Source: a virus
Strand: one strand, 5' to 3'
DNA length: 33,245 nt
Virus genome (UHGV): UHGV-0144531
The position numbers and the translations under genes were made by a program. How positions within the stretch are numbered: position 1 is the first letter of the stretch; the number at the start of each line of letters is the position of its first letter. Under the pieces are notes generated by a model that did not search any database, was not told the origin of the DNA, and was given only the letters and a program-made list of their open reading frames with translations. This document shows, one piece after another, positions 1 to 33,245 of this stretch.

Positions 1-78
1 ATAAGGTAAGTGCCTTTTTGTGCCTTCCGTATCTTTTTCCTTGCGTCTTTGCAAGTATGGCCTTACCTTGTCTGCAAG

Positions 79-90
79 TTTACAAAATGG
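79..90. promoter_or_regulatory. Copy of recurrent motif TTTACAAAATGG upstream of the repressor gene
   Basis: tttacaaaatgg at 79-90; flanked by inverted TGCAAGT / ACTTGCA repeats. Confidence 0.4.
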
Positions 91-163
91 AATTTTAAGA
101 TCAAGGCTTAAAATACACGTTTTGTGACTTGCATCAAACTTTTTGAGGTTATAGGGTAGCGAC

Positions 164-811
164 ATGAAAACAAAATGGTATGACTTAGCAAAGCAGCTCA
201 TGCGGGCGCAGGGCATGAGCCAGGATTCACTCGCGGATCGTATGGGGATAACTAAAGGCGGCCTGTCACACTGGCTGAACGGTCGCCGAGAGCCAAATCT
301 TGAAGATATTGCGCGGATTATGCGCGAGCTTGGTCGTCGGCAGTTTACTGTTACACATGATGGCATGGTCATTGATGATTCTGTTTCTAATACACTTCAG
401 GCCGTGCCGCCGCGTGATTTAGGTAGTTACCCGGTTATTGACTGGAAGGACACAGTAAACAATATGGATGACGCAAGGCGTTCAGCATTACGACACGTTA
501 CGACTAGCGTTATTTGTTCAGATGACAGTTACTGGCTGGTTGCCAAAGGTGAATCAATGAACGCGCCGCAGGGGTTGAGCATCCCGGCGGGGACGATGAT
601 ACTTGTGGACCCGCACGCGCCAGCTATTGACGGCAAACTGGTTATAGCCCAGCTTGAGGAAGGGCAGATACCGACGTTTAAACAGTTGATTATTGATGGA
701 GGTCAAAGGCTTTTACGTTCGCTCAATCCGCTGTATCCGCCAATCCCTATGAATCCAGAATCAAAAATTATAGGCGTGGTGGTTGATGCGAAGATCGTAA
801 ACCTGCCATAA
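164..811 (+). CDS. LexA/CI-family transcriptional repressor (HTH plus S24 peptidase-like domain)
   Basis: 215 aa; N-terminal HTH-like segment (SQDSLADRMGITKGGLSHWLNG); C-terminal S24 autopeptidase signature (GESM serine, downstream lysine in FKQLII); followed by a terminator hairpin. Confidence 0.75.
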   Translation: MKTKWYDLAKQLMRAQGMSQDSLADRMGITKGGLSHWLNGRREPNLEDIARIMRELGRRQFTVTHDGMVIDDSVSNTLQAVPPRDLGSYPVIDWKDTVNNMDDARRSALRHVTTSVICSDDSYWLVAKGESMNAPQGLSIPAGTMILVDPHAPAIDGKLVIAQLEEGQIPTFKQLIIDGGQRLLRSLNPLYPPIPMNPESKIIGVVVDAKIVNLP

Positions 812-816
812 ACATT

Positions 817-842
817 AGCCGCCGAATGGCGGCTTTTCTTTG
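817..842 (+). terminator. Rho-independent terminator after the repressor gene
   Basis: agccgcc-gaat-ggcggct stem-loop followed by tttctttg. Confidence 0.6.
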
Positions 843-921
843 CCTGGAAAACACCAAAACGTAAACAGAAAACGTTATTTATTATTTAAATATCAATGGC
901 ATATAAAATATTTTAAAAAAG

Positions 922-933
922 TATACAAAATGG
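922..933. promoter_or_regulatory. Copy of recurrent motif TATACAAAATGG in the repressor / early operon intergenic region
   Basis: tatacaaaatgg at 922-933 within an AT-rich stretch. Confidence 0.4.
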
Positions 934-1311
934 ACTGACTCGATGTTTTACGGGGCGTATATTGCGAGTCAAAGGAAGGGCGCAGGTAACAAAAGCAACT
1001 TCCTGGCACTTTAAAAATCAGGCTTAACACCTTGTCAACCGTGGAGTAACTCCCCGATGGGGGACCGAAAGCGGCACTGATAACAAGGCGCATGGGGTGT
1101 TTAAAGCGTTACATCCCCCACGAAACCGCACGCAAGGCGACGAGTCAGCTTGCTTGGAGTGAGCAAGGTCACGCCGGGAACGGCGATGATTGCGGGATTA
1201 GTTGAAAGATGTTAAGCCGCTCATTAACAATCTGGTCAGCCGCTGGAAGTGCGGCAATTAACGAAGATGATTTTTTATTAAGTATCATCAAGGATATACG
1301 GAGATCAGATT

Positions 1312-1602
1312 ATGAGCGTTACAATTATATATGGTAAATGTGATAGCAAAATGAATGCCAGGGAACGCAGAAGGATAAAAAGAGAAAACGAAAGAAAATC
1401 ATCACCTGCAATCAATAAAACAGACAATGTGGATAAAGCTATTCGATTTGCAAACGAGGAAAGATGCAAACCAAATAGCATTAAAGAACGTCGCAAAGGA
1501 TCAGTAAAATGGTATACGGAAAATGAAAGCGGCAGCTACTACCACGCAACGCAACCACGCCATTTAGGGGAAAAACCCCTGGATAAAGTCCGCTACCATT
1601 AA
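1312..1602 (+). CDS. Hypothetical basic protein (96 aa)
   Basis: ORF with GGAG RBS upstream (ggagatcagattATG); Lys/Arg-rich; no family recognised. Confidence 0.45.
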   Translation: MSVTIIYGKCDSKMNARERRRIKRENERKSSPAINKTDNVDKAIRFANEERCKPNSIKERRKGSVKWYTENESGSYYHATQPRHLGEKPLDKVRYH

Positions 1603-1632
1603 TACAAAATGTAAACATCCGGAGGTGACATT

Positions 1633-4976: not shown

Positions 4977-4988
4977 CCGAGTAATTCC

Positions 4989-5038
4989 GATCACATAAAT
5001 ATACATTTTGTATTGTAATTGCATATCCATTTTGTAAG
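4989..5038. promoter_or_regulatory. Recurrent motif cluster: GATCACATAAAT plus two direct copies of CATTTTGTA
   Basis: Intergenic; gatcacataaat at 4989-5000, acattttgtatt at 5003-5014, ccattttgtaag at 5027-5038. Confidence 0.45.
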
Positions 5039-5075
5039 CCGAAATCAAAAGGTTTACGGTGCGGAGGAAGCAAAA

Positions 5076-5294
5076 ATGGAACGCGAATTGATGCTTTATT
5101 GCGTAGAAGGTGGCGTAGGTCACGATGCCTACGTCGCTGGGAAAGGCTATCCAGCCGATGAAGTGCTTTCTAATATGCACTTCCGGGAAAATGAAATCAG
5201 GGTGTCTGTGTGGAAACGGTGCATTGATGGTATTGAGGTTGTAAGTATCGAACGGTATTTAGGCACGTTTGATTATGGTGTTATTGAGGCTTAA
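5076..5294 (+). CDS. Hypothetical protein (72 aa)
   Basis: ATG at 5076 with GGAGGA RBS; track start 5019 would run through the motif cluster. Confidence 0.5.
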   Translation: MERELMLYCVEGGVGHDAYVAGKGYPADEVLSNMHFRENEIRVSVWKRCIDGIEVVSIERYLGTFDYGVIEA

Positions 5295-8537: not shown

Positions 8538-8568
8538 AGTTTACGGAATGGCGTCATTGCGTGATGAA

Positions 8569-8637
8569 GATCACATAATGGCGCTTTACGCCTTGTTTGT
8601 GTGTATCCATTTTGTATACTTCAAGCAAACAAAATGC
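8569..8637. promoter_or_regulatory. Recurrent motif cluster: GATCACATAA plus CCATTTTGTATA and AACAAAATGC
   Basis: Intergenic, upstream of the ninG operon; gatcacataa 8569-8578, ccattttgtata 8607-8618, aacaaaatgc 8628-8637. Confidence 0.45.
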
Positions 8638-8696
8638 TCTTTAAAAATCCGGTAACGCTGAAATGCGTAGAAATCACCTGAAAAGGAGAGAGCATT

Positions 8697-9897: not shown

Positions 9898-10076
9898 AAA
9901 ACGAAGTTAAAGATCTGCAAATAGATATTCAGCGCGATGAGCATGATTTAGCTACAGTCCGACAAATCCAGGCTTTTCACATGCGAGAATTACTTGCACT
10001 GAAAGAGTTTGAAAGAAAGCTAGTGCAATCAATATCTGATCGCAAAAGACTGGTTGCACGTTACGGGGGTAAATAA
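9894..10076 (+). CDS. Hypothetical protein (60 aa)
   Basis: ORF translationally coupled between rusA and Q. Confidence 0.45.
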   Translation: MKNEVKDLQIDIQRDEHDLATVRQIQAFHMRELLALKEFERKLVQSISDRKRLVARYGGK

Positions 10077-10798
10077 TGAATTTGGAATCTATTCTTAAAT
10101 TCCACCTCCCAAAATCACCGCGTTTGTCAGATGAAAGCCGGGGCACGTCCCCAGACTCGCTTAATACTACTGATGCACTAACCGCAGCAGGTATGGCGCA
10201 ATCGCGCGTAGAGCTTGGTTATAGCGCTTTTTTAGGGAAGATGGAATTATCGCAAGCCGAAAAACACAGGGCCGTAGTTTTGCTTACAGAGCGTTTAAGA
10301 GCTATGGCAAAAGATTACGAATACGTCATGGAGCTGGACGAGGACAAACGCAATGATCTTATTATTCTTGTTGCCGTTTTCGCGTTTCGGGATTACTGCC
10401 AGAGTGCCGCGACAGAAAAAACTTGTATGGATTGCGGCGGATATAAATTTACGTTTGACGACTACGGAGAAAAACACCTTTGCAAAAAATGCAAGGGGCA
10501 TGGAAAAGTTCGCAATCATTGTAAACGATGCAAAGGGCGCGGCGAGATACCGGATAAAGCAGCCAGTGAAGCAGCGGAAATGCCAGTGTTCAAAACGTGC
10601 CAGCATTGCGGCGGGCGCGGGTACTCGCGTTTCCCTGTAGATCTTGTCCGGCGTGCGGTTAATCAGCTTGTATTTCCGGTAAGCCGATCAACGTGGTGGA
10701 AGAAATACCGTGCTTTCTATGAAGACGCCATTGCTGAATTGTTCAAAGAAGAGGCGCAGGCTGATAACGAAATTAAACGAGTGACACGGGGTGAATAA
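10076..10798 (+). CDS. Q: Lambda-type late antiterminator Q
   Basis: N-terminus (LESILKFHLPKSPRLSD..AAGMAQS), zinc-finger cysteines and C-terminus (HKEE..ADNEI) align with lambda Q as I recall it. Confidence 0.9.
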   Translation: MNLESILKFHLPKSPRLSDESRGTSPDSLNTTDALTAAGMAQSRVELGYSAFLGKMELSQAEKHRAVVLLTERLRAMAKDYEYVMELDEDKRNDLIILVAVFAFRDYCQSAATEKTCMDCGGYKFTFDDYGEKHLCKKCKGHGKVRNHCKRCKGRGEIPDKAASEAAEMPVFKTCQHCGGRGYSRFPVDLVRRAVNQLVFPVSRSTWWKKYRAFYEDAIAELFKEEAQADNEIKRVTRGE

Positions 10799-14496: not shown

Positions 14497-14717
14497 AAAT
14501 GATTTTAACGTGTAACGAATCGAAATTGGGCTGTTTTGAGGAAGGCGTACAGTACACGGCTGAAAAACCGATGGGATTGTCTCCTAAATTTCCGTTTATC
14601 GTCGTGACTGACACTTACGGTCACTTATGGTATGCAGGGCCGCTAGGCGGTATTGGTCGTTATGTTGTCCGTAGTTCGGATGGGGCGATGAAGGTTACTT
14701 TTACGGAAGAAGCATAA
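14493..14717 (+). CDS. Small protein, paralog family member D (74 aa)
   Basis: ATG 14493 with AGGGG RBS; LTCNESKLGCFEEGVQYTAE and TDTYGHLWYAG motifs. Confidence 0.45.
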   Translation: MKMILTCNESKLGCFEEGVQYTAEKPMGLSPKFPFIVVTDTYGHLWYAGPLGGIGRYVVRSSDGAMKVTFTEEA

Positions 14718-14777
14718 ATGTGATCTACCCTTCAAAGTTTACAAAATGGCATTGTTCTGGTGGCGCCATTTTGTTAT
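14714..14777. promoter_or_regulatory. Palindromic element TTTACAAAATGG-N16-CCATTTTGTTAT with adjacent GATCACATTT (reverse orientation)
   Basis: Intergenic; aaatgtgatc 14716-14725; tttacaaaatgg 14738-14749; ccattttgttat 14766-14777; TATAAA-like -10 inside the right arm. Confidence 0.5.
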
Positions 14778-14815
14778 AAAGAAGCTGAAGAGAGAACGAT
14801 GCGGAGGGTAGAAAA

Positions 14816-15088
14816 ATGAAACGCTGGATTAACGAAGAAACAAAAGCCCGCTTCAATGCAATTTGGGATCTGATTGAAAAAGAGGACGGCGTTTCTAGTC
14901 CCTACCTGAACAATCTTGAGTTCCACTATGTAGAAGCGATGAACGCAGAGCATGACCACCAAGTCGGTGCTGATGAATTCGCCAAAAAATACGGCTTCGA
15001 TGATGCAAACCATATGATTAACAACGTGGTGATGCAGGCAGAGGAAGACTACGAATGCAAATCACTTGAATTCGCACGTATGGCATAA
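14816..15088 (+). CDS. Hypothetical protein (90 aa)
   Basis: First ORF downstream of the palindromic element. Confidence 0.45.
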   Translation: MKRWINEETKARFNAIWDLIEKEDGVSSPYLNNLEFHYVEAMNAEHDHQVGADEFAKKYGFDDANHMINNVVMQAEEDYECKSLEFARMA

Positions 15089-18603: not shown

Positions 18604-19146
18604 ATGGCTAAGGCTAAAGGCATTAAGTTGCCTCACTTCAAGATCCCGCTTTTTGAGCATACCACTGTTTTCTTTTGCCCGACCCGCGAGATGTTCTATG
18701 AATTTTGCGAAAAGGCAGGAATTCCGATTGAACCTGATTTCGAGTTGGCTGGAGGATTAACGCTTACTTGCACTGGCGAGAATGGTGGTAACTTCTACGT
18801 GATCGCAGTATTCAACAATGAGTTGGGAACGCTGGTCCATGAATGCGCCCACACTACATTCCACGTTTTAAGTGATGTAGGCGTCGTGGCTACCACGGAT
18901 CCTACCCATCCGGCGAATGAGACTTACGCTTACATGGTAGACCGTATCTTCGATGCGTTTTTCCCTATCATAGCAGAATCAAACGAAGCACAGGTTGCAG
19001 CAATGCAGGCGGCAGAAGTCGTCGATCAGGCGCTGGAACAGGCAGAACAGCCGAAGGAAGAGGAAAAACCCGCGAAGAAAGGCAAACGTAAGCCCAAAGC
19101 AAAAGAAGCGTATGTGCCGCGCGTAATGAGCTTTAAACGAGGCTGA
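18604..19146 (+). CDS. Hypothetical protein with HExxH motif and Lys-rich C-terminal tail (180 aa)
   Basis: GTLVHECAHTTFH with Glu about 22 residues downstream (gluzincin-like spacing); tail EEEKPAKKGKRKPKAKE; GGAG RBS sits in the loop of a 7-bp hairpin (cagaata/tattctg). Confidence 0.55.
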   Translation: MAKAKGIKLPHFKIPLFEHTTVFFCPTREMFYEFCEKAGIPIEPDFELAGGLTLTCTGENGGNFYVIAVFNNELGTLVHECAHTTFHVLSDVGVVATTDPTHPANETYAYMVDRIFDAFFPIIAESNEAQVAAMQAAEVVDQALEQAEQPKEEEKPAKKGKRKPKAKEAYVPRVMSFKRG

Positions 19147-19148
19147 TT

Positions 19149-19238
19149 ATGGTTGCGTCAATATTAACGTTTATGGGTGGCGTGGCGTTCGGATTCATTA
19201 TTTGCCTGTTTATGGTGATTATGTCTATGCGAGGCTGA
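19149..19238 (+). CDS. Tiny hydrophobic peptide 1 (29 aa)
   Basis: MVASILTFMGGVAFGFIICLFMVIMSMRG; GAGG RBS; ATG overlaps upstream stop. Confidence 0.3.
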   Translation: MVASILTFMGGVAFGFIICLFMVIMSMRG

Positions 19239-19240
19239 TT

Positions 19241-30061: not shown

Positions 30062-30382
30062 TTATGCTATTTTTTCGTAAAGCACATTCATCTGGGTGCG
30101 AATCACTGTTAATATATTGATTGCTGCGTTCTTATTAATGCGTTTATTCGCTACTATTTTTGTTTTCCCATCAATAACAACCAGATCTGCGTGCAATACA
30201 TGGTTGAAGTTGACAATGTAATAATACTGTTTATCGCCAACATGTTGAACATATGCACCATTTAGATTTCCTTTATACCCACAATCACGCTCTGCGACAC
30301 CGAAGTCAAATTCGCGGTTCATCTTGCGATTATATGCTACTTGTTTATGTTCCCATTTTCTCATCCATTCATCGCGTTTCAT
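30062..30382 (-). CDS. Hypothetical protein (106 aa), second gene of minus-strand insertion
   Basis: Minus-strand ORF with no signal peptide; AT-rich by eye; 9-nt gap from upstream lipoprotein gene. Confidence 0.5.
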   Translation of the reverse strand: MKRDEWMRKWEHKQVAYNRKMNREFDFGVAERDCGYKGNLNGAYVQHVGDKQYYYIVNFNHVLHADLVVIDGKTKIVANKRINKNAAINILTVIRTQMNVLYEKIA

Positions 30383-30391
30383 GTTTCACCC

Positions 30392-31051
30392 TTAATTCCA
30401 GTTGCAAGCGTTTTTCACTTTGTCGATGTGGTTATAAAGACCATCAATGTTAAACACTGCTTTCTCAATGTCGCCAGCTTCCGGCACTACTTCAATGATA
30501 AATTGTTTTTCGTTAACCAGTTTTTTAATCATTGGAATGGCTTTTTTGCCGTTCCATAATCCAAGAGCTTTATAGTTAGTTGACCGACTCCATTCAGTAG
30601 CTACAGCTTTGTGATCGCCGATCTGGTAGTTAATATAAGTAGTGTCCCCAGCGTCAGTTACATGGTTTGACCATGCTACGAACATTTTTGTTTTATTACC
30701 CTGGCAAGCGATTGTTAATACAGGTTTGTTTTCATCCCGTGCTTTCAGTGTAGGGAAAGCATCAAGACTTCCGCTGAAATGTTCTGCTTTCACGAAAAGG
30801 AACACGTTTTTTGTGTCCTGCATATCATCTTTTCTTTCGACCACAAGCCACTGTTTACCAGCTTTTTCTTTTGCTAACTGTGCCTCATATGCGGCTTGTT
30901 TTGCTTGTTGTTCTGCAAGCCATTTAGCATTTTTCTCTGCTAATGCTTGTTGTTCTTGAGTGGTCACTATAGGCGCTTTTTCATTATCCTCATTGCAACC
31001 AACCAGACCCAATACCGCCGCAATCATTGCCACTTTTGCTAACCGTTTCAT
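30392..31051 (-). CDS. Predicted lipoprotein (219 aa)
   Basis: Signal peptide with lipobox (MKRLAKVAMIAAVLGLVGC); Ala/Gln/Lys/Glu-rich linker then globular domain of about 130 aa; GGTGGG RBS; minus strand. Confidence 0.7.
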   Translation of the reverse strand: MKRLAKVAMIAAVLGLVGCNEDNEKAPIVTTQEQQALAEKNAKWLAEQQAKQAAYEAQLAKEKAGKQWLVVERKDDMQDTKNVFLFVKAEHFSGSLDAFPTLKARDENKPVLTIACQGNKTKMFVAWSNHVTDAGDTTYINYQIGDHKAVATEWSRSTNYKALGLWNGKKAIPMIKKLVNEKQFIIEVVPEAGDIEKAVFNIDGLYNHIDKVKNACNWN

Positions 31052-31098
31052 AACCCACCACGCTAACTTGATTTACTGACCATTCCCTTTGGCTTCTT

Positions 31099-31161
31099 TA
31101 TACAAAATGGAGTCGTTGAAGTAAAGCCATTTTGTATAAAATAGATACACAGATCACATTT
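31099..31161. promoter_or_regulatory. Palindromic element TATACAAAATGG-N16-CCATTTTGTATA with adjacent GATCACATTT, between divergent genes
   Basis: tatacaaaatgg 31099-31110; ccattttgtata 31127-31138; gatcacattt 31152-31161; TATAAA-like -10 in each arm on its own strand. Confidence 0.5.
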
Positions 31162-31178
31162 TTGCATGAGGTTAAATC

Positions 31179-33245
31179 ATGGCTACCAGTGTAGGTACAA
31201 TTTATTACGAAGTTGATGCGAAAACTGGTCAACTTCTCGTTGCACAACGACAGGCAGACCAGGCCTTTGGGCGTATAGAGCGCGGCGCAAAACAGGCTGA
31301 CCGCCAGGTAAACACCCTGAAAACATCCATCAAGGCACTGACCAGGGTTATCCATTTGCTAATTGCTGCGGAGGCCGTGCGTCAATTTATGGATATGGCG
31401 GAGCAAGCAAAAATGCTTCGCGTAAAAATCAAAATGCTTACGGGCGATGCGGAGTCCGCCGGACGGGTTTTTGATGGCCTGAAAGCAATATCAAAAGAAA
31501 CAGGCCAAAGCATGAAGGATACCGGGGATCTGTGGCAAGGCTTAGCTATCTCACTGAAGAACACGTCCGCCACTGAAGGGCAATTGCTTAACCTGGTAGG
31601 TACGATTCAGAAAATGGGGGCGTTGGGCGGCGCGTCAGCGGAGCAGATGTCAAACTCAATGCGTCAATTCCGTCAGTCTATCGACGGTGGCGTGTTGCGT
31701 GCTGAAGAATTCAACAGCCTGTTAGAAAACACCCCGACCATCGTACAGACAATGGCACGCCAGATGGGGTTATCAATGGGCCAATTCCGCGCCGAAATGC
31801 TGGACGGTAAGATCACGGCAGAAAGGATGGTTAACGCAATCCAGGCGGCTACGCAGGAAACAAACGAGAAGTTTGCGCAGTTGCCGCGCACATCCGGCAT
31901 GGCCCTGAATGAGCTTAAAGTCGAGGTTATGGGACTTGTTGAGCAATTGGATGATCTTTTCGGTGTATCCGATACGGTTGTTGCTGGTATCGATCTTGTA
32001 ACGAAAGGTGTTAAGGCTTTAGGTGAAGGCGCTGATTTCGCTAAAACCTGCTTTAACACCCTGAAGACGGCTGGTGGCGAATTCATCGACATGTTTGAAG
32101 ATGTCAGAATCAAGGCTGGCGAGGTAGCCGAGAAGATCATCGCAATGGTGACGCCAATCAAGGCACTAATGGATGCCTACAAATGGATGAAGGAGGTCGT
32201 AGGAGAGCAAACCGACGAATATAACAGCAACTACGAGAAGAAATACGGTAAGACCGTTGGCAAGGTCATGCAACTACAGGATGATCTGACCGCAGCAATC
32301 CAGGCTACAGAAGAAGCAAGGAAAAATGAACAGAATGCCGCCAATGACGGAGCGATTACCGGATTCGACAAGCCAGTAGACAAACCGAAAAAACAGAAAA
32401 AAGAGAAGAAATCTGAAGCTGATCGTCTTGGCGATAAAGGTATAAGCGTTTCTGACCAGTACAACAAAGACGCCGCCGCTATGCGCAAAGCGTTAGAGAG
32501 CGGCAAGGCCATTGATGCTGCATTCGCCCAGGGTAAAATCACTCTCCTTGAGTACCGCGCCGCGCAAAAAGGGATAGGTAAGGAACTAAAGGAAGAATTA
32601 GCACAAATTCCGGTAGAGGAATTGCGCGACAAATGGGAGCAAATAGTAAGCCCGATGGATCAGCTAAAGGGCGAAGTAGACCCTATTCAGCAGGTTCAAA
32701 ATGAATGGGCCGTCCGTAAGCAAATGCTTATCGACCTGGGCGTGACGGAAGCGCAACAGAAACAGGAACTGTTAGCCTATGAGCAACAGATCCGCGATCT
32801 GAAGTGGGAGCAATGGCAGGCGCAAAGCGACACAAACAGCCTTATCGGTGATTGCGTTAATGGCCTTAAAGGTGGTATGAGCAATGCACTTGTTGGCCTG
32901 TTAAATGGTACTCAATCATTGAGTGATGTTTTTGCTAACTTAGGCAGCAATATCCTCGGGAATATCGGTAACAGGCTTTCAGACATAGCTGCAAACTGGA
33001 TAGCAGATCAGATCATGATGGAAACGCAAAGCAAAGCGACTCAGGCAAGTACCACGGCGGGCGCGGTAGCGGCGCAAGGCCAGATTGCTGCGGCGGCGGC
33101 CCCGGCGGCGGCGGCAACAGCGGCGTCAACTGGCGGCGCATGGGCGGCGGCTGGTTCTGCGGCACTCACTGCGATCATGTCGCTGGCTACGTCAATTTTT
33201 GGCGGCGGTCGCTTTAATGGTGGTAGCGTCATTGGTGGCAATATG
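31179..33245 (+). CDS. Tail tape measure protein (partial, continues past window end)
   Basis: Open frame from ATG 31179 (GAGG RBS) to the window end, 689 codons with no stop; alpha-helical, Ala/Gln/Glu-rich, Ala/Gly-rich hydrophobic segment near the end; missing from the ORF track because no stop is present. Confidence 0.8.
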   Translation, partial: MATSVGTIYYEVDAKTGQLLVAQRQADQAFGRIERGAKQADRQVNTLKTSIKALTRVIHLLIAAEAVRQFMDMAEQAKMLRVKIKMLTGDAESAGRVFDGLKAISKETGQSMKDTGDLWQGLAISLKNTSATEGQLLNLVGTIQKMGALGGASAEQMSNSMRQFRQSIDGGVLRAEEFNSLLENTPTIVQTMARQMGLSMGQFRAEMLDGKITAERMVNAIQAATQETNEKFAQLPRTSGMALNELKVEVMGLVEQLDDLFGVSDTVVAGIDLVTKGVKALGEGADFAKTCFNTLKTAGGEFIDMFEDVRIKAGEVAEKIIAMVTPIKALMDAYKWMKEVVGEQTDEYNSNYEKKYGKTVGKVMQLQDDLTAAIQATEEARKNEQNAANDGAITGFDKPVDKPKKQKKEKKSEADRLGDKGISVSDQYNKDAAAMRKALESGKAIDAAFAQGKITLLEYRAAQKGIGKELKEELAQIPVEELRDKWEQIVSPMDQLKGEVDPIQQVQNEWAVRKQMLIDLGVTEAQQKQELLAYEQQIRDLKWEQWQAQSDTNSLIGDCVNGLKGGMSNALVGLLNGTQSLSDVFANLGSNILGNIGNRLSDIAANWIADQIMMETQSKATQASTTAGAVAAQGQIAAAAAPAAAATAASTGGAWAAAGSAALTAIMSLATSIFGGGRFNGGSVIGGNM

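What the first reader, a model, noticed from the sequence alone, without database searches (positions are those of the whole stretch)
14714..14780. Recurrent palindromic motif TACAAAATGG-N16-CCATTTTGTA at operon boundaries
A 10-12 nt motif with consensus T(T/A)TACAAAATGG occurs, in one or other orientation, at least nine times, all in intergenic regions: 79-90, 922-933, 1602-1611 (degenerate), 5003-5014, 5027-5038, 8607-8618, 14738-14749, 14766-14777, 31099-31110 and 31127-31138. A specific 10-mer is expected less than once in a window of this size. At 14738-14777 and 31099-31138 two copies form a perfect inverted repeat with the same 16-bp spacer, and each arm carries a TATAAA-like -10. These sites precede new gene blocks, including the divergent lipoprotein and tape measure genes. 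The pattern suggests a common operator for one dimeric regulator, possibly the CI-like repressor, or a shared promoter architecture.
Basis: seen in the sequence. Interest (0 to 1): 0.6.

Follow-up and report, generated by a model that had tools for sequence, protein, structure and literature searches.

The report
Dispersed CI-repressor operators at phage promoters
The repeated TACAAAATGG motif is most likely the binding site of this temperate E. coli phage's lambda-CI-like repressor, copied onto about ten promoters across the genome rather than only the two beside the repressor gene, and often paired with a CRP-like box.

Summary
TACAAAATGG occurs 7 times exactly (0.09 expected) and 13 times with one mismatch or fewer (3.4 expected). 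All exact copies are intergenic. One detail is wrong: the 14766 arm reads AACAAAATGG, so only the 31101/31127 palindrome is perfect.

The window is a prophage of the mEpimmI (mEp021) coliphage group, whose operators have not been published. The motif sits on the two early promoters that flank the lambda-CI-type repressor gene. It matches the clade-wide operator pattern (A/T)TAC-N5-GTA, found at the same positions upstream of homologous repressors. It also recurs at internal promoters.

Each copy is probably a whole operator of about 17 bp (GTWTAC-AAAAT-GGA), not a half-site. The "palindromes" are two operators 25 bp apart. The promoter-proximal copy is fused to a -10-like hexamer.

At five promoters a CRP-like box lies 43.5–44.5 bp upstream of that copy, about -60 from the predicted start (5 of 13 copies against 0.09 expected).

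RNA-hairpin and terminator readings are rejected as the common explanation. Binding by the repressor and the direction of regulation are inferred, not shown. I class this as a new variant of a known kind, of moderate interest.

The parts
76..92 (-). Operator O_L1 (AAGTTTACAAAATGGAA; motif 81-90). It covers the spacer and the -10 of the predicted leftward early promoter PL: -35 TTGATC at 104-99, a 16-nt spacer, and -10 TAAACT at 82-77, all on the minus strand.
   Evidence: The motif is kept across 21 relatives except at its 6th base, while the DNA between it and the -35 varies. A nutL boxA lies downstream in mEp021.
113..138 (+). Degenerate operator O_L2 (ATACACGTTTTGTGACT at 113-129; AAATAC-ATTTT-GTGACT in most relatives), overlapping a CRP-like box TGTGACTTGCATCAAA at 123-138 (9 of 10). 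It is centred about 43 bp upstream of the repressor start codon.
   Evidence: The homologous repressor locus L090 has its O2 at the same 47-nt distance from the rep ATG.
129..166 (+). Predicted repressor promoter (PRM-like): TTGCAT (129-134), N17, TAGGGT (152-157), N6, ATG (164). This geometry would give a leaderless rep mRNA.
   Evidence: The same geometry occurs across the clade, with a perfect TATAAT in L090-type phages.
854..866 (-). Additional operator-like site GTTTACGTTTTGG upstream of PR.
   Evidence: pattern GTWTAC-N5-GK. The block CCAAAACGTAAAC is nearly invariant (one substitution in 21 relatives) in the A3 alignment.
919..963 (+). PR region. It holds the motif operator (AAGTATACAAAATGGAC; motif 924-933) at -46..-37, the -35 CTGACT at 935-940 (TTGACT in relatives), a degenerate operator TTTTAC-GGGGC-GTATAT at 946-962 over the -10, and the -10 TATATT at 958-963. 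An AT-rich UP-like tract lies at 902-923.
   Evidence: This is the only canonical sigma-70 promoter called next to a motif. AAAAAAGTATACAAAATG and TTGACT are invariant in 21 relatives while the promoter spacer varies. The two operator centres are 25 bp apart.
1600..1616 (.). Dyad operator TAATAC-AAAAT-GTAAAC, immediately after the stop codon of the N-like antiterminator gene.
   Evidence: In the two most diverged relatives the centre changes (ATATC, ATAAC) while both halves are kept.
4980..5040 (+). Module A. It holds a CRP-like box AGTAATTCCGATCACA (4980-4995), a distal operator ACATTTTGTA (5003-5012, a perfect TACA-N3-TGTA dyad), and a proximal operator CCATTTTGTA (5027-5036). The gene start is at 5076.
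   Evidence: mEp021 has CGTGATTGCGATCACA (9 of 10) at the same offset.
8539..8668 (+). Module B. It holds an operator-like GTTTACGGAATGG (8539-8551), a CRP-like box CGTGATGAAGATCACA (8560-8575, 9 of 10), a small hairpin GGCGCTTTACGCC (8580-8592), an operator GTATCCATTTTGTATAC (8603-8619; motif 8607-8616) fused to the -10 TATACT (8615-8620), then boxA TGCTCTTTAAAAA (8635-8647) and a boxB-like hairpin ACGCTGAAATGCGT (8655-8668), which together correspond to nutR2.
   Evidence: The position of nutR2 comes from PMC11893012.
14719..14780 (+). Module C, the finding itself. It holds a CRP-like box TGTGATCTACCCTTCA (14719-14734), a distal operator TACAAAATGG (14740-14749), a 16-nt spacer containing a -35-like TTGTTC, a proximal operator CCATTTTGTT (14766-14775), and the -10-like TATAAA (14775-14780). 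The gene start is at 14816.
   Evidence: Relatives carry perfect or near-perfect CRP cores here: TGTGATCTTCATCACA in L009 and TGTGATCTGTATCACA in the M1/5 prophage.
31097..31158 (-). Module D, read leftward. It holds a CRP-like box (31143-31158), a distal operator (31127-31136), a 16-nt spacer with a -35-like TTTACT, a proximal operator (31101-31110), and the -10-like TATAAA (31102-31097). It drives the lipoprotein gene that starts at 31051 on the minus strand. The right arm also faces the tape measure gene (ATG at 31179).
   Evidence: The arms are a perfect 14-nt inverted repeat.
164..811 (+). rep, the lambda-CI-type repressor (HTH_3 plus Peptidase_S24) proposed to bind the motif.
   Evidence: (3bdn lambda repressor, E = 1.4e-20, residues 15-208). 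The Rep021 orthologue confers immunity from a plasmid (PMC11893012).

Best explanation
The 10-mer is the conserved core of an operator of about 17 bp, GT(A/T)TAC-AAAAT-GG(A/C)nn. It is bound by the phage's lambda-CI-type repressor Rep, and presumably also by its Cro-like antagonist. In lambda the operators are confined to two clusters beside the repressor gene. Here they have been copied onto roughly ten promoters across the genome: PL with the rep promoter, PR, and internal promoters that restart transcription after terminators or head accessory-gene cassettes.

Each copy is a whole operator for one repressor dimer. The strong half, GTAWAC, doubles as the -10 hexamer (TAWACT or TATAAA) of the promoter it controls, so a bound repressor would occlude RNA polymerase. 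A second copy 24-25 bp upstream, near -41, gives a pair suited to cooperative binding through the conserved CI C-terminal domain. When that second copy is inverted, the pair reads as the palindrome TACAAAATGG-N16-CCATTTTGTA.

Five of these promoters also carry a CRP-like box at about -60, the class I activation position. The modules therefore look like cAMP-CRP-dependent, Rep-repressible promoters.

Shown here: the sequence statistics, positions, conservation and geometry, the homology of Rep to lambda CI, and the clade-wide operator pattern. Inferred: that Rep is the binder, that the effect is repression, that binding is cooperative, the transcription start points, and that CRP binds the box.
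For: 1. Rep is a full-length lambda CI homologue with both the HTH and the S24/cooperativity domains. The mEp021 orthologue confers immunity from a plasmid (PMC11893012).

2. The motif is the main element shared by the two intergenic regions that flank rep. It covers the spacer and -10 of the predicted PL (TTGATC-N16-TAAACT) and lies at -46..-37 of PR, with a degenerate TAC-N5-GTA site over the PR -10 25 bp away.

3. In 21 relatives the motif blocks are conserved while neighbouring promoter-spacer DNA varies. The palindrome arms are invariant while the 16-nt spacers vary.

4. Across 20 N-terminal types of this CI clade, three repeats of the form (A/T)TAC-N5-GTA(T/A) lie upstream of rep at conserved positions. 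The window's motif occupies the O1 position and its degenerate copy the O2 position, at the same 47 nt from the ATG as in L090. At the 1603 site the halves are kept while the centre changes in two diverged relatives.

5. The generalised pattern GTWTAC-N5-GK gives 12 hits against 2.8 expected. Eight of them are in the 9.6% of the window that is non-coding.

6. Partner copies lie 24-25 bp upstream at seven loci.

7. Oriented as CCATTTTGTA, the consensus continues as (A/T)ACT, a -10-like hexamer. By my reading, 13 of 17 copies in the window plus mEp021 point at a co-directional gene start 30-110 nt away (with the annotations). The M1/5 prophage again has copies at the strand-switch junctions of its tail region.

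8. A CRP-like box is centred 43.5-44.5 bp upstream of the proximal copy at 5 of 13 copies, against 0.09 expected. None of 20,000 random placements reached 5. The box is conserved in mEp021 and mEp010 and is a perfect core in some relatives.
Against: No binding or transcription data exist for any site, so Rep as the binder rests on position and homology.

- The consensus is consistently asymmetric (GG where a dyad would have GT), which is unusual for a homodimeric CI protein.
- The motif's main copy at PR lies upstream of the -35 rather than over the core promoter, and the proposed proximal PR operator is weak and variable.
- O_L1 and O_L2 are 35 bp apart, not 24-25.
- Repression by Rep would silence the accessory genes (the lipoprotein, for example) in lysogens, where such genes are often expressed.
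- The -10-like hexamers are poor (TATAAA, TAAGCC), and the strict sigma-70 scan calls none of the internal sites.
- No heteroimmune relative with the same backbone was found, so covariation of the dispersed sites with the repressor could not be tested.
- In the one other clade member examined over 15 kb, the operator variant is not dispersed. Dispersal is therefore special to this group and cannot be inferred from homology.
Confidence: 0.6

Rival explanations
1. The motif is an operator or activator site for a different DNA-binding protein. Candidates are the divergently encoded Cro-like HTH protein alone, another small phage regulator, or a host factor that works together with CRP. On this reading Rep uses other sequences.
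For: The consensus is asymmetric. The motif holds a fixed 43.5-44.5 bp geometry with a CRP-like box, which would also suit a co-regulator. Copies near -41 sit at a classic activator position. The internal promoters have weak hexamers that may need activation.
Against: The clade-wide comparison ties (A/T)TAC-N5-GTA repeats to the repressor gene at lambda-like O1/O2/O3 positions. No known E. coli regulator consensus that I could recall matches the motif (from memory, not tested). Cro-type proteins normally share the repressor's operators, so that version is not truly distinct.
Confidence: 0.17
2. The motif is only a shared promoter cassette. On this reading one promoter (spacer plus -10, with an upstream A-tract acting as an UP-like element) was duplicated and spread around the genome. 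It is conserved by common descent or by RNA polymerase contacts, and no repressor is involved.
For: The motif runs into a -10-like hexamer and mostly points at gene starts. Modules C and D share longer similarity, including TAAAGAAGC and the TGTGATCT box. Modules A and C share a similar ribosome-binding and start region (family D4). The distal copy reading TACAAAATG resembles the proximal UP-element subsite (from memory).
Against: Apart from C and D, the modules share only the short elements and not the DNA between them. The motif also occurs in the opposite orientation upstream of the -35 sites, and at 1603, where no promoter is evident. An invariant 8-nt block inside a sigma-70 spacer is not explained by polymerase contacts. 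The motif matches the operator pattern of homologous repressors.
Confidence: 0.12
3. The inverted repeats act at the RNA level, as hairpins for termination, processing or attenuation.
For: The two palindromes fold at -11.7 to -15.2 kcal/mol with z-scores between -1.6 and -5.8. In mEp010 the two arm changes of the C-type site would give G-U pairs on the + strand.
Against: Any inverted repeat folds. The direct-repeat site (5003/5027) and the 8607 site do not fold better than shuffles, and single copies have no partner. The stems are A/U-rich with 16-nt loops and no U-tract, and no terminator is called at them. No Rfam family matches. If the right arm abuts the -10, the module's own transcript starts downstream of the hairpin. 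The D-type site of mEp021 and mEp010 has an uncompensated arm change (TACAAAATGT).
Confidence: 0.03
4. The conserved short sequences are recombination joints (module boundary sequences). They would promote exchange of gene cassettes between related phages, with no regulatory role.
For: Copies lie at mosaic boundaries. The gene next to the 31101 site differs between relatives while the motif is kept. The block containing the 14740 site is absent from mEp021. The M1/5 prophage is identical to the window only from the tape-measure side of the site.
Against: At 10-40 bp the sequences are short for efficient homologous exchange. The fixed geometry with -10-like hexamers, partner sites and the CRP-like box points to transcription. 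The copies on PL and PR are not at mosaic boundaries. This could be a side effect of dispersed operators rather than their function.
Confidence: 0.05

Closest known systems
Lambda CI / OR-OL operators (lambdoid immunity regions)
   Same: The repressor is homologous over its whole length, with an HTH plus an S24 C-terminal domain. The sites are dyad-like and about 17 bp long, and they overlap the early promoters on both sides of the repressor gene. One site lies about 43 bp upstream of a leaderless-type repressor promoter, like OR2 at PRM. Neighbouring sites are 24-25 bp apart, compared with 23-24 bp in lambda (the lambda values are from memory).
   Different: The sites are not confined to two clusters. 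At least six further loci across the window, and more in the tail region of relatives, carry them. The consensus is consistently asymmetric with a fixed A-tract centre. PR has its best site upstream of the -35. The repressor gene is co-oriented with PR and separated from it by a terminator. CRP-like boxes accompany five of the sites.
Stoperators of cluster A mycobacteriophages (L5 gp71, Bxb1; PMC9283540, PMC6550527)
   Same: An asymmetric repressor site is present in many copies in short intergenic regions across a temperate phage genome.
   Different: Stoperators lie in one orientation relative to transcription and act by stopping elongation (orientation rule from memory; elongation stop from the PMC9283540 abstract). 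Their repressor is monomeric and not CI-like (same abstract). Here the orientation is mixed (5:5 in the window), most copies are fused to promoter-like hexamers, and the repressor is a CI homologue.
Phage P1 C1 repressor and its dispersed operators (from memory)
   Same: This is a coliphage whose immunity repressor controls more than a dozen operators scattered over the genome. Each overlaps a promoter, the consensus is an asymmetric 17 bp, and some are paired as incomplete palindromes.
   Different: C1 is unrelated to CI and binds as a monomer, and P1 is a plasmid prophage. The consensus (ATTGCTCTAATAAATTT) is unrelated.
Class I CRP-dependent promoters such as lac (from memory)
   Same: A TGTGA-N6-TCACA-like box (7-10 of 10 matches) lies about 60 bp upstream of the predicted start of promoters with weak hexamers.
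   Different: The start points are predicted, not mapped. With them the box centres fall at -59.5 to -60.5 rather than -61.5. Several boxes have one perfect half and one poor half. CRP control of this phage group has not been reported in the papers I could read.
PeSL promoter/stem-loop cassettes of T4-type phages (from memory)
   Same: Short repeated regulatory units (a promoter plus an inverted repeat) flank variable gene cassettes.
   Different: PeSLs are early promoters with a stem-loop in lytic phages and are thought to mediate shuffling. Here the repeats match a repressor operator, and most are not palindromic.

Membership tests
Operator set of a lambda-CI-type repressor | The phage encodes a CI/LexA-type repressor (HTH plus S24 peptidase-like C-terminal domain). 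| tested here: met
   Window 164-811 matches 3bdn lambda repressor at E = 1.4e-20 over residues 15-208 and the Pfam families HTH_3 and Peptidase_S24.
Operator set of a lambda-CI-type repressor | Sites overlap the early promoters that flank the repressor gene. | tested here: met
   The motif covers the PL spacer and -10 (76-92). It lies at -46..-37 of PR, with a degenerate site over the PR -10. The promoters are predicted, not mapped.
Operator set of a lambda-CI-type repressor | Sites are about 17 bp long with two-fold (dyad) symmetry. | tested here: inconclusive
   The 1600-1616 and 5003 copies are good dyads (TACA-N3-TGTA). Most copies have a strong half, GTWTAC, and a weak half, GGAnnn, and the G is consistent.
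Operator set of a lambda-CI-type repressor | Homologous repressors in other phages have equivalent repeated sites at equivalent positions. | tested here: met
   Twenty N-terminal types all have three (A/T)TAC-N5-GTA repeats upstream of rep. The window's motif and its degenerate copy fall at the O1 and O2 positions.
Operator set of a lambda-CI-type repressor | The repressor physically binds the sites and represses the promoters. | not testable with these tools
   This needs EMSA or footprinting, ChIP, and reporter assays.
Stoperators (cluster A mycobacteriophages) | All copies lie in one orientation relative to the direction of transcription. | tested here: not met
   Of the ten intergenic copies in the window, five are in each orientation, although nearly all genes are on the + strand.
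Stoperators (cluster A mycobacteriophages) | A monomeric two-domain repressor of the L5 gp71 type. | tested here: not met
   Rep is a lambda CI homologue. The family description comes from the PMC9283540 abstract.
Class I CRP-dependent promoter | A TGTGA-N6-TCACA site. | tested here: met
   The boxes score 7-9 of 10 in the window and 10 of 10 in relatives at module C (L009, M1/5). Such boxes are not enriched in the window overall: 11 at 8 of 10 or better, against 13 expected.
Class I CRP-dependent promoter | The site is centred near -61.5 (or further upstream by whole helical turns) from the transcription start. | tested here: inconclusive
   The distance to the proximal motif is fixed at 43.5-44.5 bp at five promoters. 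With starts predicted 7 nt after the hexamer, the centres fall at -59.5 to -60.5. The starts are not mapped.
Intrinsic terminator / structured RNA | A G+C-rich stem followed by a U-tract, or a fold that is conserved and better than chance at all copies. | tested here: not met
   No terminator is called at the palindromes. The 5003/5027 and 8607 sites fold no better than shuffles. No Rfam match was found.

The most novel reading that the evidence does not exclude
A lambda-CI-type repressor controls a genome-wide regulon of about 10-17 self-contained promoter cassettes. In each cassette the strong operator half is itself the -10, and a second operator lies 25 bp upstream. Several cassettes are wired to cAMP-CRP through a class I box. 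On this reading prophage silencing, accessory-gene (moron) expression and perhaps the lysis-lysogeny choice of a prevalent gut coliphage group integrate host carbon status at every promoter. The third nut site of this group would then be explained by a third Rep-controlled early promoter directly upstream of it.
Probability: 0.3. Interest if true: 0.7.

Novelty: new variant of a known kind. Interest (0 to 1): 0.5.

Why it matters
[quoted passage not shown] They share a single immunity type, and their repressor has been shown to work, but no operator has been reported. That paper only remarks that the operators probably differ from lambda's.

This analysis gives a concrete, testable operator, GTWTAC-AAAAT-GGA, and a map of candidate promoters. 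It also suggests that a CI-type repressor here polices many promoters across the genome rather than two. That arrangement is known for the unrelated repressors of P1 and the cluster A mycobacteriophages, but it is not the textbook picture for CI.

The module at 8603-8620 would account for the group's unusual third nut site, because it places a separate early promoter immediately upstream of nutR2. The CRP-like boxes, if functional, would link prophage gene expression to host carbon status.

Tried and rejected
- **Fixed sigma-70 element.** I tried reading the motif as a -35 (TTGTAA or TTTACA) or as an extended -10 (TGnTATAAT). The distances to partner hexamers are inconsistent, and the TG is in the wrong register (manual reading; strict scans).
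- **Alternative sigma factors and other promoter classes.** Readings as sigma-28, sigma-54, sigma-S or T4-late promoters, and as host factor sites (IHF, Fis, DnaA, TyrR, OmpR, AraC, CytR and others), were considered from memory. None fits all copies, and none was tested formally.
- **One dimer on the two arms.** Rejected on geometry: the centres are 25 bp apart, and single and direct-repeat copies exist.
- **RNA hairpin.** Rejected as the common denominator.
- **GATCACAT as a Dam-related or independent motif.** Its positions are better explained as the strong half of a CRP-like box at a fixed offset. I also considered it as a weak Rep half-site (ATCAC-N5); only the 8569 copy fits.
- **Covariation within the same backbone.** Searches through the repressor and through the N-like protein Gp17 returned only homoimmune members, so this could not be done. 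The three loci with a 37-38% Rep homologue belong to ordinary lambdoid prophages.
- **Literature.** Valencia-Toxqui et al. 2023 (Arch Virol 168:92), which may map the early promoters, is not in the library. A full-text search for the motif found only unrelated primer sequences.
- **Gene functions.** PHROGs and Pfam gave no function for the genes downstream of modules A and C.
Full report
**What the window is.** The window is most of a temperate E. coli phage or prophage of the mEp021 / mEpimmI group. It shares about 87% DNA identity with mEp044, mEp010, mEp554, mEp021 and MagusPhagus over 73-86% of the first 20 kb and about 90% of the remainder.

The gene order follows mEp021: a CI-like repressor (164-811), an N-like antiterminator Gp17 (1312-1602), Erf, methyltransferases, NinG, Q (10076-10798), many small ORFs, lysis genes, head and tail genes, a reverse-strand cassette (30062-31051), and the tape measure gene (from 31179).

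The 2025 description of the group shows that the repressor Rep021 confers immunity and that Gp17 acts at three nut sites. It reports no operator or promoter sequences (PMC11893012). The earlier antitermination paper is not in the library.

**Checking the observation.**
- Exact TACAAAATGG occurs 7 times against 0.09 expected.
- With one mismatch or fewer it occurs 13 times against 3.4 expected.
- It is the top 9-mer and 10-mer in the window apart from a GCC repeat.
- The ten listed copies lie in gaps between genes. The three extra one-mismatch hits (169, 15876, 27022) are in or at the start of coding sequence, which is the chance level.

One detail is wrong. The 14766 arm is AACAAAATGG, so that repeat is 9 of 10. 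The 31097-31110 / 31127-31140 repeat is perfect over 14 nt.

The spacer is constrained. A scan of viral contigs for ACAAAATGG-N(12-20)-CCATTTTGT gave 41 hits. Of these, 27 have exactly 16 nt, and they lie mostly on 53-57 kb contigs of this phage group, at two orthologous loci. The other 14 are scattered over the remaining spacer lengths. In the alignment of those loci the arms are invariant while the 16-nt spacers differ.

**The motif is longer than 10 nt and is tied to promoters.** Oriented as CCATTTTGTA, the consensus continues as (A/T)ACT. The motif therefore runs into a -10-like hexamer: TAAACT, TATACT, or TATAAA at the palindromes.

In the window plus mEp021, by my reading against the annotations, 13 of 17 copies point at a co-directional gene start 30-110 nt downstream. 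In mEp021 and in the related M1/5 prophage, copies recur at the junctions in the tail region where reverse-strand cassettes meet forward-strand genes.

The strict sigma-70 scan calls only one promoter next to a motif, CTGACT-N17-TATATT at 935-963, which is TTGACT in relatives. The other hexamers are weak.

**The immunity region.**
- *PL.* On the left of rep, the minus strand reads TTGATC (104-99), a 16-nt spacer, and TAAACT (82-77). This is a plausible leftward early promoter, with the nutL boxA further downstream in mEp021. The motif (81-90) covers the last 8 nt of its spacer and the first 2 nt of its -10.
- *PR.* On the right of rep, after a bidirectional terminator (817-834), the motif (924-933) sits at -46..-37 of PR, preceded by an AT-rich UP-like tract. 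A degenerate TTTTAC-GGGGC-GTATAT covers the PR -10. The two centres are 25 bp apart.
- *Shared elements.* The motif is the main element shared by these two intergenic regions, apart from AT-rich runs and the boxA sequences.
- *Conservation.* In 21 relatives AAAAAAGTATACAAAATG and TTGACT are invariant while the PR spacer varies. At PL the motif is kept except for its 6th base, while the DNA between it and the -35 varies.
- *The rep promoter.* rep itself appears to have a PRM-like promoter, TTGCAT-N17-TAGGGT-N6-ATG, which would give a leaderless mRNA. A degenerate motif copy is centred about 43 bp upstream.

**Link to the repressor family.** Rep aligns with lambda CI over residues 15-208 (E = 1.4e-20), including the C-terminal domain that mediates dimer and tetramer contacts.

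Loci encoding Rep homologues were collected: 43 with at least 90% identity, 3 at 37-38%, and then 80 more of the wider clade. Across 20 distinct N-terminal types, every type has three repeats of the form (A/T)TAC-N5-GTA(T/A) upstream of the repressor gene at conserved positions. One lies over the leftward promoter, one is centred about 44 bp upstream of the ATG, and one lies over a ...GTATAAT-N6-ATG promoter. The details differ between types.

The window's motif, GTTTAC-AAAAT-GGAAT, occupies the first position. Its degenerate copy occupies the second, at the same 47 nt from the ATG as in L090. The one-mismatch copies at 1603 and 5003 are perfect TACA-N3-TGTA dyads. At the 1603 site the two most diverged relatives keep both halves and change the centre.

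The generalised pattern GTWTAC-N5-GK gives 12 hits against 2.8 expected. Eight of them lie in the 9.6% of the window that is non-coding, including new candidates at 854, 5052 and 8539.

In the one other clade member examined over 15 kb, the operator variant occurs only at the immunity region and at a TTGACA promoter 2.7 kb downstream. Dispersal is therefore a peculiarity of the mEpimmI group.

**Each copy is a whole operator, and pairs are 24-25 bp apart.** A weaker or equal copy lies 24-25 bp upstream of the promoter-proximal copy at seven loci. It is inverted at 14745/14770 and 31106/31131, which produces the "palindromes". It is in direct orientation at 5007/5031. It is degenerate elsewhere.

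This spacing is close to that of adjacent lambda operators (23-24 bp, from memory) and is too wide for one HTH dimer. O_L1 and O_L2 are 35 bp apart, so the rule is not universal.

**A composite module with a CRP-like box.** GATCACAT, which I noticed beside four sites, is the strong half of a TGTGA-N6-TCACA box. Such boxes are not enriched in the window overall: 11 score 8 of 10 or better, against 13 expected.

Beside the motif, however, the box centre lies 43.5-44.5 bp upstream of the proximal copy at five promoters: PL 130.5, A 4987.5, B 8567.5, C 14726.5 and D-leftward 31150.5. That is 5 of 13 copies against 0.09 expected, and none of 20,000 random placements reached 5.

The geometry is the same in mEp021 and mEp010, with boxes of 8-9 of 10. 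Some relatives have a perfect core at module C: TGTGATCTTCATCACA in L009 and TGTGATCTGTATCACA in M1/5.

If transcription starts 7 nt after the hexamer, the box lies at -59.5 to -60.5, the distal operator at about -41, and the proximal operator at about -16. The five modules share only these short elements and not the DNA between them, except that C and D-leftward are more alike.

**Consequences for reading the loci.**
- *The finding itself (14719-14780).* This is a rightward module in front of the ORF at 14816.
- *The 31097-31158 site.* This is best read as a leftward module for the lipoprotein gene (30392-31051, minus strand). That gene is VasI/TagO-like and has the lipobox LVGC. The right arm serves as its distal operator. 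There is no CRP-like box on the tape-measure side.
- *Module B.* Its -10 (TATACT, 8615-8620) sits 15 nt upstream of boxA (8635-8647) and a boxB-like hairpin (8655-8668), which correspond to nutR2. This suggests that the third nut site serves a third early promoter located just after the terminator that follows the cytosine methyltransferase gene.

**Alternatives.** An RNA hairpin cannot be the common factor. The palindromes fold, as any inverted repeat does. The direct-repeat site and the 8607 site do not fold better than shuffles, and single copies have no partner. No terminator or Rfam family is found.

A pure promoter-cassette reading does not explain the copies upstream of the -35 sites in the opposite orientation, the 1603 site, or the match to the clade's operators. 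A different binder (the Cro-like protein or a host co-regulator of CRP) cannot be excluded. Recombination at these short conserved joints may be a side effect.

**Limits.** There are no binding data and no mapped transcription starts.
- The direction of regulation at accessory promoters is unknown, and a copy at -41 could activate, as CI does at PRM.
- The consistent GG in the weak half is unexplained.
- No relative was found with the same backbone and a different repressor, so strict covariation could not be tested.

**Prevalence.** The 31084-31178 module is present once, on the chromosome, in 35 of 5,426 complete E. coli genomes.

**Verdict.** The best explanation is a dispersed set of operators for the lambda-CI-type repressor, each built into a promoter and several coupled to a CRP-like box. 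I give this a confidence of about 0.6. It is a new variant of a known kind of system and of moderate interest.

Noticed in passing
window 123-138, 4980-4995, 8560-8575, 14719-14734, 31143-31158: CRP-like boxes (TGTGA-N6-TCACA, 7-9 of 10 matches) lie at a fixed 43.5-44.5 bp from the promoter-proximal motif copy, about -60 from the predicted starts. Some relatives have perfect cores. This suggests cAMP-CRP input into five phage promoters, including the leftward early promoter.
   Followed up: partly
window 8603-8668: A promoter-like module (operator fused to the -10 TATACT at 8615-8620) lies directly upstream of boxA TGCTCTTTAAAAA (8635-8647) and a boxB-like hairpin ACGCTGAAATGCGT (8655-8668), which correspond to nutR2. 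The group's unusual third nut site may therefore serve a third early promoter rather than read-through from PR.
   Followed up: partly
window 129-166, and L090 1566-1603: The repressor gene appears to be transcribed as a leaderless mRNA: TTGCAT-N17-TAGGGT-N6-ATG here, and TCCACA-N17-TATAAT-N6-ATG in a 38%-identical homologue. There is no Shine-Dalgarno sequence, as at lambda PRM. The geometry is conserved across the clade.
   Followed up: partly
window 164-178: Codons 1-5 of rep (ATG AAA ACA AAA TGG = MKTKW) contain AACAAAATGG, a one-mismatch copy of the operator core. It lies 43.5 bp from the CRP-like box at 123-138. The N-terminal arm MK(T/M)(K/N)W is conserved across the clade, so this may be coincidence or an autoregulatory site.
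   Followed up: no
window 41-52: TTGCGTCTTTGC (TTGC-N4-TTGC) lies just downstream of the predicted PL start and is conserved in relatives as TTGCRTCNTTGC. It resembles the TTGC repeats bound by lambda CII, but with a 4-nt rather than a 6-nt gap. It remains unexplained.
   Followed up: no
window 30392-31051 (-) and 30062-30382 (-): A reverse-strand accessory cassette lies inside the tail operon. The first gene encodes a lipoprotein (lipobox LVGC) that matches Pfam VasI (E = 2.5e-16). It is annotated in a related prophage as type VI secretion system-associated protein TagO. The gene at this position differs between relatives.
   Followed up: partly
window 19150-19239: A 29-codon hydrophobic ORF (MVASILTFMGGVAFGFIICLFMVIMSMRG) lies on a 100-nt stretch that is 93-95% identical to rV5/FV3-like lytic phages and to records labelled as Campylobacter phages. 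Its ribosome-binding and start sequence (CGAGGCTGATTATGG) is repeated at 19137 and 19229. It may be a small mobile membrane-peptide gene.
   Followed up: no
window 5061-5085, 14801-14825, 31398-31422: A direct-repeat family, GCGGAGG(A/G)..AAAAATG(G/A)AACGC, was found. The first two copies are the ribosome-binding and start regions of the genes downstream of modules A and C, so those two modules share more than the operators.
   Followed up: no
window 817-834: A bidirectional terminator-like hairpin (AGCCGCCGAATGGCGGCT) lies right after rep and separates rep from PR. The motif copy at 924, read leftward (CCATTTTG-TATACT), could start a short transcript that runs toward it, antisense to the 3' end of rep.
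   Followed up: no
L213 (E. coli M1/5 chromosome NZ_CP053296.1, 2677035-2717129): A related prophage next to ydaN/zntB is identical to the window from about 31200 to the window's end, but mosaic elsewhere. Its tail region holds reverse-strand cassettes with a ParE-family toxin-like gene and a KilAC antirepressor gene, with motif copies at the adjoining junctions. The gene at the portal position is annotated as an anti-CBASS Acb1 family protein.
   Followed up: partly
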